Source of the DNA: Octopus sinensis | Taxonomy: Eukaryota | NCBI RefSeq assembly: GCF_006345805.1 | Contig: NC_043009.1 | Span: 40,486,001 to 40,550,000 of the forward strand | Direction: 5' to 3' | DNA: 64,000 nucleotides | Made by a program: the position numbers and the translations under genes | Part shown: piece by piece, positions 21,290 through 63,790 of the stretch | Numbering within the stretch: the stretch's first letter is position 1 | Layout: each line of letters begins with the position of its first letter | The notes under the pieces: model-generated | What the model was told of the DNA's origin: nothing | The model's database searches: none | Seen by the model: only the letters and a program-made list of their open reading frames with translations

Positions 21290-21620
21290 TAATTTAATCA
21301 AGACATTTTCCTTTTCTATTCATAAAATAATCGCATTGGCAAATTGTTGATCCCTCGGGCGTAAAATTCTTTAGATTTCAAAACAAAGAAACACTCGCTG
21401 TAGTTTCTAACCTCTTCACATTGAAGAAACAATTCATAAGCAATTGTTGCAATGATCTGATAGTTAGATGAAATAAAGTCAGGAGAGTGAGGAGGGTGAC
21501 ATAAATCTTTGTATTTAGTACCATAATCTTTTCCTAAGTGAGTTGAGCGAAATGTGGTCTTGCATTATCGTGGAAGAGCAACATTCTTTCAGGATTGACC
21601 AACGATGTACAAATATATCT
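21290..21620 (-). pseudogene. Mariner transposase C-terminal remnant
   Basis: Minus-strand HDNARPH (21552-21572), HPPHSPD (21478-21498; cf. HPPYSPDLAP) and EFYARGINNLP (cf. FY..GI..L..RW), with stops and frameshifts. Confidence 0.85.
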
Positions 21621-22489
21621 TGCCGCTTCCATTGCTAAAGAGCTCTTTTTGAATTCATACAGCATGCAGTTTCTGATATGGGTCTGGCCTAAACTCATTT
21701 TGAAAGGGTAAATATTAATACATATTTAACCATTTAATATGGTAAGAAGAGAAATAACATTAGAATGTAAAAATTAATTCTTATTTTACCTTAATTACTG
21801 AAAACGTGCCTTCCAAGTGATCATGGCAAAACAGCGACAAGACTTTCTTTCCAATCAAATACTTTCGAGATTTTTGTATTTCGAATATCAGATTCGGAAT
21901 CCTGAAGTAAATAAATAAATAAATAAATAAATTCAATTTTTTTCTCTTTTCTTTTTATTTTGGAACTGAAACACTTTTCATCTAAAAATAAACATTATTA
22001 ACGAATCTCAATCTAGTACTTTATCGATGTATTTATATATTAATTACAATGAGATGAAGAACACGACAATTTTGTAATGTAATGGCCGTATTAGTTTTCG
22101 AAATAATGGAAGTATTTTGTAATTCATTAATGAAAGCTTTCGTATTGTAATCTTTCACTTTCTGAAAACTTAAAAGGCTGTCGTTTCAATTTATTCAGGA
22201 TTGAAATGTAATTTCCGAATGCAATCAAAACATATATCTGTACATCTCAAATGCAAAGAAATATATCTATATACAAAAAGCATATCTTATATTCGTAAAT
22301 GCACACATGGAAAATATAGAAGGCAGTTTTGAAATATCCTAACTTTAATCACTATCTGTTTTTCTTTCTTTTGTAATATTTTGTTTGTTTTGTTTTTGTT
22401 TTCTTTACTAATTATTGCAGATTATGATCTCTGATGTTTAAAACATAAAAATTCGAAAGCCGATCGTGTATTTAAAAGCATAATAGTAA

Positions 22490-23620
22490 AATTCAGAGCG
22501 GCGGGAGGTTAAAATATCGACTCTTAAACGTATATGCACCAGACAAATGCCTTCCCGCAGATATGGTATCCGGTCTATAGGCATAGCTGAAAGTAAGCTC
22601 ACTTATCTGGTCACACGTATGAAAGACCCATACTTCCGTTGTTTGTGTCGCTCGTTTGAGCGCATAAAAGGTGTAGTTTAAGTGGGAACAATCATAAATC
22701 TCTGGTTTCCTGGATGGTTGTATAATTTGTTGTTGATACACGTTATGAAGATTTGTCAGTACGTAAGAAATATACCTTAATCATATTTAGCCACCTAAGG
22801 TGAAGAAGACGGAGAGTTAATAGGGGAAAAAATCGACAATATATTCAGGGAAAATCTAGACGTCAATGAAAATCAACCGATCGGTGTCTCACTGAGAATT
22901 TTCAGCTCTGGAATTATAGACAAATTGTAAAAATACGTGGTCGAGCAGTGAAACTAGACTCTAATAGTATGGCAGTGCCGTCAACTGATGCTGTTTGACA
23001 AACGCGCAGAACCTTGAAACCAATGCCATAATTGCTGCTATACAGAAGCATGCCGAACAGCTGTTATCCCGTGAAATACGATTCTGGGTGTTAGCGGAGT
23101 CTATGATGAAAATAGCAAAGCCGCATTTCTTTGATCGGTAAGGGTGGATTAGCATTTATCTGTCAATCAGATGGCTTTGGCAAGAAGTGATAGTATGACA
23201 AATGAGATTGAACTGACTAAAGAGAGGCACTTCTCTCTTCAACGAAGCCCACATCAACTCTTTAAAATAATACTGGAGGAGAAAAAGGTGAAGATAGAGA
23301 GGGAAGTACATTTCTCCAAGAACTTTGTTGAAAGAGCGTGATGTAACGTGTATAGCCTAGTCTTAACATATGGCAGTAAACTGGAAATTACAGGTAACAG
23401 AACACATTTTTTCTTTTGGTACTAAGGTTAATCTAAGATGTGCCGAAGTCCTTGGTCTACCTAGGTCGATGTCATTCTCATGGGACTAGTTTTATATTAT
23501 AAAGGTTGCTTTTTCTTTTTTTTTTTTTTTCATTAGACTTTATTTTATTCTTCGGCGCGTCTATGTAACATCTATCACTGCTTCTTTGAATTTGCCCTCG
23601 TAATGTCCGTCCGACCTTGT
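22490..23620 (+). pseudogene. Degenerate, internally deleted Tx1/L1-like LINE
   Basis: APE-like LLNVYAP at ~22521-22541; KVKIEREV and SKNFVER at ~23285-23336 align with KVRVERQV and SECFKKRW of the 31.6-kb copy; T-rich 3' UTR follows. Confidence 0.5.
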
Positions 23621-23640
23621 ATTTAAAGTATTAATATTTA

Positions 23641-23678
23641 TTTCAAATTTTGGTACAATTTCAGTAGAGAGGGTGAGT
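23641..23678 (-). mobile_element. Orphan 3' tail of SINE family B (left inversion breakpoint)
   Basis: tttcaaattttggtacaa..tttcagtagagagggtgagt matches the tails at 26866-26912 and 61610-61670. Confidence 0.65.
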
Positions 23679-24164
23679 AACAAAATGTGTAAGACCGCCA
23701 TCTTGCATAGAAATCAAAATCTTCAATATTCTCCCAAGTACTGATCACTGTCCAGATTTTATCTTGCAGCATGGTGAGGTACCTTTCAGCATTCTTGGTA
23801 TTGCAAAGGATAAAAGGACTCACGATCCTGTCCGAAGTTATTCCACACAATAGAGTTACCTTGTACCAATTCTGCATTTTTTCAGAGGTAATACGAGGAT
23901 CTTCTCCTGCCCAGTAGTGGCAATTGTGACAGTTCACAAACCCACCGATGTGCAATACTGCTTCATTACTCCAAAGGATATTTTCTAAGAGATCAAACTA
24001 CGTTTGTAGTGCTTCTAAATTTCAAATAGTTAATCGATCTGAAAAAAAAACAACAACGTAGAATCAATGCCTATACATTAAAGAACAACAAATTTGAGGA
24101 AAAAAATTATAGTTAATACATAAATTATAAGTATCTTAAAATAGGGAGTTACATTTCAATCACG

Positions 24165-24168
<4 letters not shown>
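23679..24168 (-). pseudogene. Tc1/mariner-superfamily transposon, 5' half (TIR plus N-terminal part of the catalytic domain)
   Basis: ILWSNEA..HIGGFVNCHNCHYW..EDP..KVT.LCGI...NAERYLTML..MQDGG..HF; TIR at 24107-24163. Confidence 0.85.
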
Positions 24169-24202
<34 letters not shown>

Positions 24203-24204
<2 letters not shown>

Positions 24205-24358
24205 TTCAAATTCCGCCGAGGTCGACTTTGCCTTTTATCCTTTCGGGGTCGATAAATTAAGTACCAGTTACGCACTGGGGTCGATGTAATCGACTTAATC
24301 CCTTTGTCTGTCCTTGTTTGACCCCTGTGTTTAGCCCTCTGTGGGTAGTAAAGAAATA
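24203..24358 (+). mobile_element. SINE family B, 5'-truncated, inside (TA)n
   Basis: Near-consensus body and tail; (TA)n on both sides. Confidence 0.9.
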
Positions 24359-24380
24359 TATATATATATATATATACATA

Positions 24381-24471
<91 letters not shown>

Positions 24472-24621
24472 AAGGTTAGGAGAGAATGAGGCTAGTGTGC
24501 TCTGTTAAATGTCTTAAGTATATTCATGATCGACTTCCTCCTAGTTTATTGAGGGAGAAGTTAGGCATAAGAGGAATTAAATGCTGCGTACAAGAGAGAA
24601 GATTGCGCTGATGCACATATA

Positions 24622-24653
<32 letters not shown>

Positions 24654-25601
24654 GTATTCTCTTTCTTAAAACTGGTGCGTATTTTAAATTGCATGTAAAT
24701 TAGTATATTTGTAAATTACATGTATTAGTATATACTTACTATGTATATTATGCATATGTGTATACATATACCTTTATATATCCATATACATATGGATATA
24801 TATATATATGTATACATACACATGTATACATACACATGTATACATACATATATATATGTAAATATACATACATGCATATATATATATACTCACACCAGCA
24901 CACATACCTGTATGTATAGGTATCTATCTGTCTGTCTGTCTATCTCTCTCATTATCTATCTATCTATCTATTTGTCTATCTATCTATCTCTATATATATA
25001 AACACACATATGTATATATGTATATATGTATGCATAGAGGTGCACAAATGTGAGTGTGTGTCTGTTTATACATACGTGTACATGTAAACTTGAATAAGTT
25101 CTGGGACACGCATCAGGATATTTTCGACGAATCATATAATTATACAGCAAAGAAAGTAAATATTTCTATCTCTATGTTAAACCAACAGCTAAATGACTCT
25201 ATTATACATTTACAAAACACACTTAAATTTCACAAACTTCTCTTGAGATTGATGATTCACTGTTTCTGTCTAGAAAAAGCCAATTTTTTTCAATTTTTTT
25301 TTCACAATTCTGCATTGAGTTAAGACCGTAGTTTTTTTTTTGTTTCATTTCTTTTTTATGTTTTATGTCTTTTAAAAAAATTATTTGTTTAGTGTTTGTA
25401 TTCCGTGTACTGATACCTTCTTTACAGTTATAATCAAGGAGAGTCGTAGTTATAATAACGACACAAATATGTTAAGCTTTCGTGTTTGCTTGTCGCTTAT
25501 GATGGTTTTTATAGCGTAGAATTCACCTTTAACGGGAAAGATAAGTACTACTTGTCTACCATTGAACCTGACCTGAAAACACAATAGCCTTATCCTCTTA
25601 A

Positions 25602-25639
<38 letters not shown>

Positions 25640-26160
25640 AAATTCACACCAACACGGAAATACACACACAAATACACGCACACATCATACACAGTCAAAC
25701 ACAATTGTATATTCAGCCGTGTATATACACATATACAATATTTACATGTAGAGAAATTTTAAAAGGAAAATAATTTGGAATATAATATATGCAGGTGACA
25801 CGTAACATTTTATTTATTTATTTATTTATGGCTAAAATTGCTTCCTACAGAGTAAGATGGTCTGTCAAATAAGAAATACGCACACAGAGGCGTCATTTCT
25901 CAATCGTATACCGAGATACACATATGTGTGTATGAACGTATACGTGCAAACCTGTACATGCATATACGCACACACGTAGACACACATACACTTATATATG
26001 TACGTATATATGTATGTATATATAAATATGTATATACGTATATATATATATACACACACACACACACATATATATATATACATATGTATATAAAGATACG
26101 CAGTTGTGTACATATATATATATATATGCATGTATATATCTATGCATGCGTAAGTATAAA

Positions 26161-26198
<38 letters not shown>

Positions 26199-26199
<1 letters not shown>

Positions 26200-26409
26200 T
26201 CTTTACTCTTTTACTCTTTTACTTGTTTCAGTTATTTGACTGCGGCCATGCTGGAGCACCGCCTTTAGTCGAGCAACTCGACCCCGGGACTTATTCTTTG
26301 TAAGCCCAGTACTTATTCTATCGGTCTCTTGCCGAACCGCTAAGTGACGGCGACGTAAACACACCAACATCGGTTGTCAAGCAATGCTAGGGGGACAAAC
26401 ACAGACACA

Positions 26410-26451
<42 letters not shown>

Positions 26452-26622
26452 CATATATACGACGGGTTTCTTTCAGTTTCCGTCTACCAAATCCACTCAG
26501 AAGGCTTTGGTCGGCCCGAGGCTATAGTAGAAGACACTTGCCCAAGATGCCATGCAGTGGGACTGAACCCGGAACCATGTGGTTGGTAAGCAAGTTACTT
26601 ACCACACAGCCACTCCTGCGCC
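26199..26622 (-). mobile_element. SINE family A, full length
   Basis: High identity to other family A copies. Confidence 0.92.
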
Positions 26623-26629
26623 TATATAC

Positions 26630-27080
26630 TATCTACTATAGGCACAAGGATGAATTATTGGGGTCGAGGGCTAGTCGATTACATTGGCCTCGGTGTTCCA
26701 CTGGTATCTATTTTATCAATCCTGAAATCATGACAGGCATAAGTCGACCTCCGCAAAATTTGAACTTAGAACGTAAAGCCGGAAGAAAATGCCACTAAGT
26801 AGTTTGTCCGGTATGTTAACGATTTTGCCAGACCGGTCTTTTAATTGTTTACAATAATATTGGTTTCAAATCTTGACACAATGTCAGTAATTTCGTGGTA
26901 GGTGGTAAGTCGATTACGTAAACCCTAGTACTCAGCTGGTACTATTTTATACAGCTGGTACTATTTTATAAGGCAAAGTCAGCTTCAGACGAATTTGAAC
27001 TCAGTACGTAAAGATAGTCGAAATGCCACTATGCATTTCGACCGGCGTGCTAAAGATTCTGTCAGCTCTCTAGCTTCGCC
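26630..27080 (-). mobile_element. Two diverged SINE family B copies in tandem
   Basis: Family B tail/body/head motifs at 26630-26835 and 26860-27080. Confidence 0.7.
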
Positions 27081-27094
27081 TTAGTCTGAACATT

Positions 27095-27180
27095 TTAAAT
27101 CCGCGGTCGACATTGGCTTACATCATTTCGGGGTCGATAAAATAAGTGATAGTTGAGCACTGGGGTCGATATAATCGACT
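27095..27180 (+). mobile_element. SINE family B body lacking its tail (right inversion breakpoint)
   Basis: catcatttcggggtcgataaaataag...ctggggtcgatataatcgact, ending abruptly. Confidence 0.75.
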
Positions 27181-27577
27181 CCGTGAATGGCTATATGCCT
27201 ACTGTCCTGGGAGATGGATGGTTCGTCGAGGACCGTATGACTGGCCGGTTAGAAGACCTGATTTAGCACCCAGCGCATTTTTTCTTTAGGGTTGCTTAAA
27301 GGAGCATGTCTACTCTACCAAACCAACGACTTGGAGGAACTTGACTGGCGAATACGAAAAGTTATGTCTTCTATCCCACAAGAGTTCCTGATGAAATCAG
27401 TTGATGCAGTTCCCGGGCGGTTTCAGAAGCTGATGGTGAATGCTGATGCCTATATCGAATTTTAGATAAAACTCTATGCTATACGCCTTCTTCACATACT
27501 CATTTTTTTTTAACACTTATAGTTAATAAAGAAATTATAAGTATTTTAAAATAGAAAGTTACTTTTCAACCACCCTG
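27181..27577 (+). pseudogene. Tc1/mariner-superfamily transposon, 3' half (transposase C-terminus plus TIR)
   Basis: REWLYAYCPGRWMVRRGPYDWPVRRPDLAP..FF..GCLKEHVY..LEEL..RI..MSSIPQEFL..IEF* (cf. WPPRSPDL); TIR 27517-27577 ending caccctg followed by TA. Confidence 0.87.
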
Positions 27578-27593
27578 TATATATATATATATA

Positions 27594-27749
27594 TTCTCTC
27601 CTTGTTTCTCTCCTTGTTTTTTCTGTGTCCCTTCCTGTAGAAGAGCGTAGGCTCGAAACGTAAAAGACTTTTTCTATTCCTGAGCGTTATACTAATACAT
27701 CTGTTTGTTTTGTACACCACCTGTCTTCGTCTTTTGTTTTTTTCGTGAA

Positions 27750-27752
<3 letters not shown>
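27594..27752 (+). mobile_element. Short Penelope-like fragment with a minimal hammerhead-like motif, inside (TA)n
   Basis: gaagagc-gtag-gctc-gaaacgta at 27640-27662 (stem II, GAAA, palindromic ACGT); TA repeats on both sides. Confidence 0.55.
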
Positions 27753-27795
<43 letters not shown>

Positions 27796-28279: not shown

Positions 28280-28379
28280 NNNNNNNNNNNNNNNNNNNNN
28301 NNNNNNNNNNNNNNNNNNNNNNNNNNNNNNNNNNNNNNNNNNNNNNNNNNNNNNNNNNNNNNNNNNNNNNNNNNNNNNN
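28280..28379. other. Assembly gap (100 N)
   Basis: Run of N between (TA)n and (GATA)n. Confidence 1.
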
Positions 28380-61989: not shown

Positions 61990-62300
61990 TTCTTAATTCT
62001 TTTCAAGGTTACTTTAGCAAATTTGTGTAAACCTAATTTCCTACTTATTTCTTTGGTAAATCCATGCGCTATCTGTAGTAGTGTTTCTAGTTGCTTATCA
62101 TTTGCAGCTTACAGCTTGAGATCATCCATATACAAGAGATAGCTGATGGCTTTACCATAATAGTTGTATCCACATGCAGTTCTGTTTAGCATATCGGTTA
62201 AGGGCGTTAGTGTCAGACAGAAAAGGAGCGGAGAAAGCAAGTCTCCTTGGAATTTGAAATATTCCTCTTCTAATGGAAATGACTTTAGTTTTTGAGAAAT
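61990..62300 (-). pseudogene. R4/Dong-clade non-LTR reverse transcriptase remnant
   Basis: FQGDLLSPLLF (QGD at 62241-62249), ISYLLYMDDLKL (YMDDLKL at 62112-62132), LGLHKFAKV; stop and frameshift present. Confidence 0.85.
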
Positions 62301-62506
62301 ATCACACGTAACCAGAGCGATGAAGAGATTGTAGAAGTCGAAGACGACAATGACTCCTCTGGTAATTTGTACACTTGGCCTAATACCTTAACTACTACCT
62401 CAGAAGCTGAAGAATATTGAAACACGCATTACTGAAGTTGGACTACAAAAAGTAAGAATGTAGCAAATAAGCATGGTCTTTATCTCAAACATTTTTATTT
62501 ATTTTT

Positions 62507-63006
62507 TTATGCGCCTTTTTCAAGCCTAGCCAGGGTCATGGGCCCAGGTTTCCCGGTTTCTATGGCGTATGTCCCCCCCCCGTCCATCGCAGCGTTACTC
62601 AAGAAACAGGAAGAAAGAGTGAGAGAAAATTGGGACGAAAGAGTACAACAGGGGTCACCACCACCCACTGCCGGAGCCTCGTGGAGCTTTAGGTGTTTTC
62701 TCTCAATAATCACACAAAACGCCCGGTCTGGGAATCGAAACCGCGAGTCCAATGCCCTAACCACTGGGCCATTGCGCCTCCACTTTGCCCTTTTAAAACC
62801 TATCTAGGCTCATGGGCCCGGTTTCCCGGTTTCAATGGCCTATGTGTTCCCCAGCTGGACAGGACGCCAGTCCATCGCAGCGTTACTCATTTTTGCCAGC
62901 TGAGTAGACTGGAGCAACGTGAAGTGTTTTGCCCGGTCGAGGAATCGAAACTACAATCTTACACTCATGATGCTGACACCCTAACCACTAAGCCACGCGC
63001 CTCCAC
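62507..63006 (-). mobile_element. Two tRNA-derived SINEs: family C variant (62507-62783) and a C/D-like chimera (62800-63006)
   Basis: gtggaggcgc heads; shared gaaaccgggaaacc tail; second copy carries the cacgttgctccagt..actcagctg core seen in family D. Confidence 0.75.
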
Positions 63007-63019
63007 TTATCTCAAACAT

Positions 63020-63660
63020 AATGTGGGGAAAATTCATGGTAGTAGGGAAAGAGAAAGTAAATGTTAACATCAAACTAAGCAGTGAGAGGCTCGAACAGGT
63101 TGAATTGTACAAGTATCTTGGAGCTCAAATTTCTGATAAAGACACATGTAAGAAAGAAATTAGGACACGGCTAGACATAGCAAGAACGCCTGTGAAAGAG
63201 CTTAAAAACATCTGGAACAGCAAAAAGTGCTGCAACTAAGTTAAAACAAGACTAATATGAAGGCTCATTTGGACGATAAGCATTTATGGTTGCGAAGGAT
63301 GGGGAGTGAACAAATTTGAAGAGAACATAATCACTGCGTTTGAAATGTGGATGTTATGAGTTTCTCACGAGGAGCATCGAACAAATGAAGGGGTGTTACA
63401 AGTAGGCGAGAGACAACAACCCCTGAACATTAAGATAAAAAAAGGTCTTCTGTTCTAGTCATATTCGAAGAAGTAGGGATCTAGAAAATATTATCACAGA
63501 AGGAAGAGAAGCGGGTAGTAGATCAAGAGGCAAGCAAAGAACGCAATGGGTGGAAAATATCATGAGCTGGTTTGATAATAGTGGCAAGGCGGCTGAAGAA
63601 TTTCGTTGTTGTCATCAATGCTCTGGAGGAATACGATACATGAAGATGACGATTGCTGGC
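63020..63660 (+). pseudogene. RTE-clade LINE remnant
   Basis: LEQVELYKYLG..I..EIRTRL..LKNIWNS..YGCEGW..AFEMW..RTNEGVL..RSRGKQRTQW, with stops. Confidence 0.85.
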
Positions 63661-63664
63661 ATGC

Positions 63665-63790
63665 CAGAAATGTGCAATCCGGCACCTTGCGAGAATCCTA
63701 AGGAAGATTTTTTTTAGCTTTTGAGGAGACTTGTTGTCACCAGACCGCAAGATAACATGCCTGCTAACATAATGCAGCATGTAATAGTTA
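63665..63790 (+). mobile_element. Probable R4/Dong 3' end abutting (TAA)n
   Basis: QKCAI..LARILRKIF (cf. QK..LLGTARILRKVL), short UTR, then a (TAA)n array. Confidence 0.55.

What the first reader, a model, noticed from the sequence alone, without database searches (positions are those of the whole stretch)
23641..27579. ~3.5-kb inversion shown by two reciprocally broken transposable elements
Seen: the left junction (23676-23679) joins a minus-strand SINE-B tail to the minus-strand 5' half of a Tc1/mariner transposase ending at MQDGG..HF. The right junction (27178-27181) joins a plus-strand SINE-B body ending aatcgact to the plus-strand 3' half of the transposase starting REWL..PGRW. Flipping 23679-27180 restores both the SINE (aatcg-act-caccc) and the transposase (QDG..HF...REWL). 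The two ~57-bp TIRs now lie as direct repeats (24107-24163 and 27517-27577), as an inversion predicts. ACT is present at both junctions. Inference: an inversion between non-homologous repeats by end joining or microhomology, not by ectopic recombination.
Basis: partly seen in the sequence, partly recalled or inferred. Interest (0 to 1): 0.75.

Follow-up and report, generated by a model that had tools for sequence, protein, structure and literature searches.

The report
Small inversion cutting two dead transposons
Two dead jumping genes are cut and cross-joined at the two ends of a 3.5-kb stretch of this animal genome, so the stretch was very likely flipped long ago, likely by ordinary end-joining repair of two DNA breaks, a known kind of rearrangement with no sign of a gene affected.

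Summary
Real, and of an ordinary kind. The 5' part of a Tc1/mariner copy (minus, 24167-23678) and its 3' part (plus, 27182-27577) are consecutive on 32 intact genomic copies, with 8 nt missing and no overlap; both are about 10% from the family majority. The SINE body (27100-27181) and tail (minus, 23678-23633) belong to one subfamily. Contigs bridge the left junction in 3 of 4 runs. They carry the right junction in 3 of 4, with only 28-29 letters on the SINE side. Three organism labels are involved, so misassembly is very unlikely and the event is old. The un-inverted allele was not seen. One correction: the word at both junctions is ACTC, not ACT. It is best read as a 3-4 nt duplication of SINE sequence plus an 8-9 nt loss from the transposon, with 0-1 nt of true microhomology. 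That suggests a staggered break repaired by end joining. Human HsInv0379 (PMC4591017) is a direct precedent. No host-gene domain was found in the window. No earlier scan note matched this place or these words.

The parts
23633..23678 (-). 3' tail of the broken SINE (left outer side; begins with the duplicated ACTC)
   Evidence: Aligns with tails of intact family copies, with an internal deletion of about 9 nt; score far above null
23675..23678 (-). Left junction word ACTC; the A at 23678 fits both the transposon and the SINE
   Evidence: Sequence; family columns; bridged by contigs of X1, X3, X11
23678..24167 (-). 5' part of a non-autonomous Tc1/mariner copy (TIR to just after the QDG motif), 10.2% from the family majority
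   Evidence: ESM Atlas first hits transposase, score 0.94; no Pfam hit
24107..24167 (-). 5' TIR, now a direct repeat of the 3' TIR; last four bases decayed; followed by (AT)17
   Evidence: 50 of 57 identity to 27517-27573
23679..27177 (.). Core of the inverted segment (3,499 bp; up to 23675-27181 with the shared word): transposon half, SINEs, microsatellites, short stretches without a copy in the DNA held
   Evidence: In-script reversal improves 31 of 32 family alignments
24200..24355 (+). Passenger SINE with the other (TAATCC-type) tail
   Evidence: blastn to many window copies
26195..26630 (.). Passenger high-copy repeat
   Evidence: 85-91% to its best copies in the window and loci
26855..27080 (-). 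Passenger SINE, head-to-head with the broken SINE; 19-bp tandem duplication at 26933-26970
27100..27181 (+). Body of the broken SINE (no head found upstream), ending in ATCGACTC
   Evidence: body motif of the subfamily that carries the tail found at the left junction
27178..27181 (+). Right junction word ACTC; transposon resumes at 27182
   Evidence: Sequence; exact junction 18-mer unique in G000; carried by contigs of X3, X4, X10
27182..27577 (+). 3' part of the Tc1/mariner copy (REWL... to TIR), 10.7% from the family majority; third catalytic D replaced
27517..27579 (+). 3' TIR with its flanking TA, running into a (TA)n tract

Best explanation
A dead Tc1/mariner copy and a SINE are each cut and cross-joined at the two ends of a 3.5-kb stretch, which was very likely inverted in one germline event, likely when two DNA breaks were repaired by non-homologous end joining. 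Shown: the four half-elements, their complementarity on the family sequences, and both junctions in contigs of several runs. Inferred: before the event the SINE lay on the minus strand at the left and the transposon on the plus strand at the right. The SINE break was staggered by 3-4 nt and both overhangs were filled in, so (A)CTC now stands on both sides. The transposon break lost 8-9 nt. The ends were joined with 0-1 nt of microhomology. The elements were bystanders: neither break is at an element end, so neither transposition nor ectopic recombination is needed. The event is younger than the transposon insertion and older than the split between the alleles of runs X11 and X3. It likely has no function.
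For: 8 nt gap and no overlap on 32 distinct intact copies; equal divergence of the halves, 50/491 and 43/403. Reversal improves 31 of 32 alignments. TIRs direct here, inverted in intact copies. SINE tail beats the nulls and fits the body's subfamily: 6 of 10 copies with the body pattern carry this tail type, against 10 of 78 without. Rough chance that two independently broken pairs would meet this closely: about 8e-4. Left junction bridged in X1, X3, X11; right junction carried in X3, X4, X10; X3 has both. Both exact junction 18-mers are unique in G000. For the duplication reading: T is the family letter at both key columns, and this copy's T>C rate is 9 of 293, so two such changes have p about 0.001. 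C after ATCGACT is the minority letter among SINE copies with this tail type (3 of 16), yet it stands on both sides here.
Against: The un-inverted allele was seen in no run; the loose-end tables were cut (151 and 142 rows not shown), and X12, which holds the smallest share of words among the runs laid, has no listed piece across either junction. The right-junction contigs have 28-29 letters on the SINE side, under the tool's 31-letter rule for bridging. X1 may be the assembly's own sample. The junction reading rests on two bases of a copy that is 10% diverged; a small deletion before the event could give the same text (3 of 32 copies have a 3-nt deletion at this spot and one a longer one). One junction pair cannot separate end joining from a replication template switch.
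Confidence: 0.7

Rival explanations
1. Same inversion, joined by microhomology: this transposon copy had mutated to ACT and TC near its break, and these annealed with the SINE's ACTC; only 5 nt were lost.
For: ACT ends the transposon's 5' part in register with the family's ATT, and TC precedes its 3' part in register with TT. Microhomology of 2-3 nt is typical of alternative end joining (established knowledge).
Against: It needs two T>C changes at exactly these columns; no clean case in 32 copies; p about 0.001 at this copy's rate.
Confidence: 0.12
2. Same inversion, made by two template switches at a stalled replication fork (FoSTeS/MMBIR), the 3-4 nt being copied twice and the 8-9 nt skipped.
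For: 18 of 21 human non-homologous inversions carry small deletions or insertions that the authors say may come from one FoSTeS/MMBIR event (PMC6748972, passages). The stretch is rich in microsatellites.
Against: No templated insertion and no third junction were found; true microhomology is 0-1 nt on the preferred reading.
Confidence: 0.1
3. The breaks were made by topoisomerase II (4-nt 5' overhangs); the SINE overhangs were filled in and the transposon ends trimmed. This is a special case of the best explanation.
For: Trapped TOP2 gives 2-4 bp duplications by fill-in and end joining, together with deletions enriched at 6-8 bp and with rearrangements (PMC8795545, passages). The junctions show 3-4 nt gained and 8-9 nt lost.
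Against: One event; any two close nicks give the same; the duplication may be 3 nt; that paper concerns mutant enzymes in yeast and tumours; no consensus site was tested.
Confidence: 0.1
4. Misassembly or chimeric reads.
For: Repeat-rich region with an N gap at 28280-28379; no listed contig spans the whole segment.
Against: Both junctions occur in contigs of other studies and organism labels; the joins are reciprocal to the base.
Confidence: 0.01
5. No inversion: two separately truncated transposon copies and two SINE fragments happen to lie side by side, or the junctions spread as a composite element.
For: Truncated copies are common; L046 is interrupted within about 10 nt of the same site by another repeat.
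Against: Reciprocal fit of both pairs, about 8e-4 by chance; equal divergence; both exact junction 18-mers unique in G000.
Confidence: 0.01
6. Ectopic recombination between inverted repeats.
For: Several SINE copies of both orientations lie inside and near the segment.
Against: The breaks join a SINE to a transposon; the shared word is 4 nt.
Confidence: 0.005

Closest known systems
Human inversion HsInv0379 (Puig et al. 2015, PMC4591017; passages seen)
   Same: Breakpoints inside non-homologous transposable elements, no microhomology, assigned to end joining; ancestral order read from the abruptly interrupted elements.
   Different: 415 kb, clean breaks, polymorphic, disrupts a gene; both breaks in L1 copies. 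Here 3.5 kb, a small duplication and deletion, a SINE and a DNA transposon, no gene found.
Human non-homologous (NH) inversions (Giner-Delgado et al. 2019, PMC6748972; passages seen)
   Same: [quoted passage not shown]
   Different: Those are polymorphic and genotyped; here only the inverted form was seen.
Staggered-break inversions of Drosophila (Ranz et al. 2007, PMC1885836; PMC7487137; passages seen)
   Same: Inverted duplication at the breakpoints from filled-in overhangs followed by end joining; may affect only one of the two breaks.
   Different: Their duplications cover genes or other long non-repetitive sequence; here 3-4 nt.
Visitor/DD41D family of Tc1/mariner (named in bioRxiv 10.1101/2022.10.13.512200; passages seen)
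   Same: Intact copies show 41 residues between the second and third D; TIRs of about 60 bp; TA-rich target.
   Different: Copies held are about 0.7-0.9 kb and degenerate; no tree against reference transposases was built.

Membership tests
Non-homologous (end-joined) inversion | Two reciprocal junctions with the inner segment reversed | tested here: met
Non-homologous (end-joined) inversion | No long inverted repeat at the breaks | tested here: met
   Shared word 4 nt; none of 6 nt or more at the breaks
Non-homologous (end-joined) inversion | Junctions present in raw data, not only in the assembly | tested here: met
   Left bridged in 3 of 4 runs; right carried in 3 of 4 runs but with 28-29 letters on one side
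Non-homologous (end-joined) inversion | Un-inverted arrangement seen in an outgroup or second allele | tested here: inconclusive
   Not seen in the 6 runs laid; X12 has no listed piece across either junction; tables cut
Staggered-break inversion | Inverted duplication of originally single-copy sequence at the two junctions | tested here: inconclusive
   ACTC at both junctions, assigned to the SINE by family letters; only 3-4 nt and no ancestral allele
NAHR inversion | Long, highly similar inverted repeats at both breaks | tested here: not met
TOP2-derived rearrangement | 4-nt duplication from filled-in 5' overhangs, as a statistical excess | not testable with these tools
   One event, 3 or 4 nt; needs a catalogue
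Tc1/mariner superfamily | Terminal inverted repeats | tested here: met
   Inverted in intact copies; 50 of 57 identity in this copy
Tc1/mariner superfamily | DDE/D transposase homology | tested here: met
   ESM Atlas 0.94 to transposase clusters, one with DDE_3 on 19% of members; WSDE and QDG motifs in copies. Pfam and PDB gave nothing for the degenerate pieces
Tc1/mariner superfamily | TA target-site duplication | tested here: inconclusive
   Both ends run into (TA)n tracts and the 5' end is decayed
Visitor/DD41D | 41 residues between second and third D | tested here: inconclusive
   9 of 32 copies measurable: 3 exactly 41, six at 36.7-41.7 through indels; L043 41 in translation; third D replaced in the window copy
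Visitor/DD41D | Placement in the DD41D clade on a transposase tree | not tested
   No reference transposases fetched

The most novel reading that the evidence does not exclude
The junctions are a germline fossil of topoisomerase II breakage: a 4-nt duplication at one break and an 8-9 nt loss at the other, close to the two halves of the TOP2 indel signature. Reciprocally broken repeats would then give an outgroup-free catalogue of micro-inversions in octopus-type genomes in which that mechanism could be counted.
Probability: 0.1. Interest if true: 0.45.

Novelty: new member of a known kind. Interest (0 to 1): 0.25.

Why it matters
Little as a single locus: the segment holds repeats and no gene domain was found. 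Its value is as a clean worked example. Both breakpoints are resolved to the base and polarised without an outgroup, and they show that repeats at inversion breakpoints can be bystanders. It is also a shared derived marker across at least three organism labels. Chromosome-scale octopus comparisons report inversions from whole-genome dot plots (PMC10700109, passages); my two octopus searches listed no paper on base-level breakpoints of small inversions. A genome-wide screen of this type could measure how often end joining rather than ectopic recombination makes them.

Tried and rejected
Pfam on three stop-free transposase pieces gave one irrelevant weak hit (E 0.16); the PDB sequence search gave one chance hit (E 0.35). 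The repeat finder was swamped by microsatellites. Run X12 (organism D) was laid twice in the hope of seeing the ancestral allele; it has no listed piece across either junction, which proves nothing. The one-mismatch hit to the right-junction 18-mer (L062) is a chance match with neither element around it. The three one-mismatch hits to the left 18-mer are at chance level (control 15) and were not read. Survey for other inverted copies of this family: none of 58 loci (54 distinct) had non-TIR parts in opposite orientation; the two flags are one locus and are TIR matches. These loci were the best hits, so intact copies are favoured and flanks are only 1.5 kb. For the two without a 3' half (L046, L055), 10 kb downstream held none. 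A cruciform cut was considered, because the SINE break lies at the foot of a 6-bp palindrome, but such a cut should duplicate the palindrome, not four bases. A SINE- or transposase-driven event was rejected because both breaks are internal. Paper searches that gave nothing usable. Supplements were not read; breakpoint tables there could hold closer precedents.

Full report
Setting. The window is G000:C13:40486001-40550000 of a 2.72-Gb animal genome. The window is dominated by microsatellites and short repeats. Of 139 stop-free frames of ordinary composition, 3 had a Pfam hit at E 0.01 or better: a mariner HTH, a reverse transcriptase piece and a weak coiled coil below cut-off. Short exons would be missed, so an intronic position is not excluded.

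The transposon. The minus-strand stretch 24167-23678 and the plus-strand stretch 27182-27577 each find many genomic relatives at roughly 75-85% identity (40 candidates scored in each). In 32 distinct copies that reach the break from the 5' side, the two halves are consecutive: the family majority has 8 nt between them and there is no overlap. The halves differ from the majority by 50 of 491 and 43 of 403 positions, as expected for one copy. The TIRs, inverted in intact copies, are direct repeats here, 50 of 57 identical. Reversing 23679-27177 in a script raised the local alignment score for 31 of 32 copies; L046 lacks a 3' half. The ESM Atlas places the 5' piece with transposases (0.94); Pfam and PDB did not recognise the degenerate pieces. 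The D-to-D spacing points to 41 residues (3 of 9 measurable copies exactly; 23 of 32 not measurable), the number that names Visitor/DD41D; no tree was built.

The SINE. The body at 27100-27181 matches a very common family. Among 88 copies in the DNA held, tails diverge right after ATCGACT. The sequence outside the left junction, read on the minus strand, matches one tail type: score 42.2 against 20.2 +/- 3.0 for random window pieces (1 of 1000 reached it) and 0 of 500 shuffles. The body carries a pattern that goes with this tail: 6 of 10 copies with it have that tail, against 10 of 78 without. Body and tail join with no gap.

Is it in the DNA? Both exact junction 18-mers occur once in G000. 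Of 24 runs listed, 12 hold part of the left region, from 6 studies and 4 organism labels. The left junction is bridged by contigs of X1 (label A, possibly the assembly's source), X11 (label C; 0 substitutions and 1 gap over 546) and X3 (label B; 11 substitutions and 16 gap letters over about 540); X12 (label D) has no listed piece across it. The right junction is carried by contigs of X3, X4 and X10 (all label B, three studies); all start at 27153, where a 31-mer graph would branch in a high-copy SINE (inference), which leaves 28-29 letters on the SINE side, below the tool's 31-letter rule; X12 again has none. X3 holds both junctions. So the structure is real and predates about 2% divergence at this locus. 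The un-inverted order was not seen, but the loose-end tables were cut.

The junctions to the base. Left, minus strand: transposon ...ATTTTGTT, then ACTC, then SINE tail ACCC. Right, plus strand: SINE ...AATCG, then ACTC, then transposon CGTGAA. The family transposon has A-T-T where the left junction has A-C-T, and T before CGT where the right has C. T stands in 28 of 32 and 30 of 32 copies; the lone C at each column lies beside a deletion. This copy's T>C rate is 9 of 293, so two such changes would be a 0.001 coincidence. The SINE supplies both C's with one change, T to C after ATCGACT, seen in 3 of 16 copies with this tail type. The economical reading is therefore that (A)CTC of the SINE is present twice, the transposon lost 8-9 nt, and microhomology is 1 nt at the left and none at the right. 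This is inference from few bases; an earlier small deletion in this copy could imitate it (one search shows deletions at this spot in other copies).

Mechanism. Shown: cross-joined halves, no repeat homology at the breaks, breaks internal to both elements. Inferred: two breaks 3.5 kb apart, the SINE break staggered by 3-4 nt and filled in, the transposon ends trimmed, the segment re-ligated reversed by end joining (0.7). Rivals: microhomology joining (0.12), template switching (0.1), misassembly or coincidence (0.01 each). Topoisomerase II as the cutter is a special case (0.1): it leaves 4-nt 5' overhangs, and trapped enzyme gives 2-4 bp duplications and 6-8 bp deletions (PMC8795545, passages), but one event cannot show it.

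Known kinds. HsInv0379 has breaks in non-homologous L1 copies, no microhomology, end joining as mechanism, and its ancestral order was read from the interrupted elements (PMC4591017, passages). Nearly half of 45 common human inversions are non-homologous, most with small indels (PMC6748972, passages). Staggered breaks with filled-in overhangs are the leading model in Drosophila (PMC1885836; PMC7487137; passages). Searches for octopus breakpoints listed no base-level study; supplements were not read. Earlier scan notes held nothing for this place or these words; the genome-wide look-up listed other SINE and retroelement findings (8 of 187 shown).

Verdict. Observation confirmed, with a correction to the junction word; interpretation supported; a new member of a known kind, interest 0.25.

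Noticed in passing
window 21319-21725 (-): Remnant of a second, different mariner element about 2 kb left of the inversion: Mos1-type HTH (Pfam HTH_48, E 2e-6) followed within the same short frame by an HDNARPH motif, so internally deleted.
   Followed up: no
window 62112-62387 (-) and 62985-63714 (+): LINE reverse-transcriptase piece on the minus strand (RVT_1, E 3e-4) near LINE-like frames on the plus strand (LINE label recalled, from no call); possibly two elements or another rearrangement.
   Followed up: no
L046:1500-1100 (minus strand): Another copy of the same transposon is interrupted within about 10 nt of the same site by a T-rich run and a different repeat; its 3' half is not within 10 kb.
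   Followed up: partly
window 27170-27181 and 23675-23678: The SINE break falls at the point where the family's tails diverge (after ATCGACT) and at the foot of a 6-bp palindrome with a 3-nt loop; may be coincidence.
   Followed up: no
L003, L008-L012, L014, L016, L018-L022, L024-L027, L030: A large subgroup of the transposon family shares one internal deletion (about 0.74 kb elements), i.e. a non-autonomous derivative that spread on its own.
   Followed up: no
window 24030-24100 (-): Between the 5' TIR and the catalytic frame lies a T-rich stretch ending in TTTTCAG that looks like a splice acceptor; the family may have had an intron or be internally deleted.
   Followed up: no
window 27594-27790 (+): A further short repeat follows the transposon's TA tract; it also occurs in several other transposon loci held (L026, L028, L029, L035, L055), perhaps through a shared preference for (TA)n targets.
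   Followed up: no
window 23614-23616: Contig of X1 reads three adjacent different letters here at full depth; a second allele or an assembly error.
   Followed up: no
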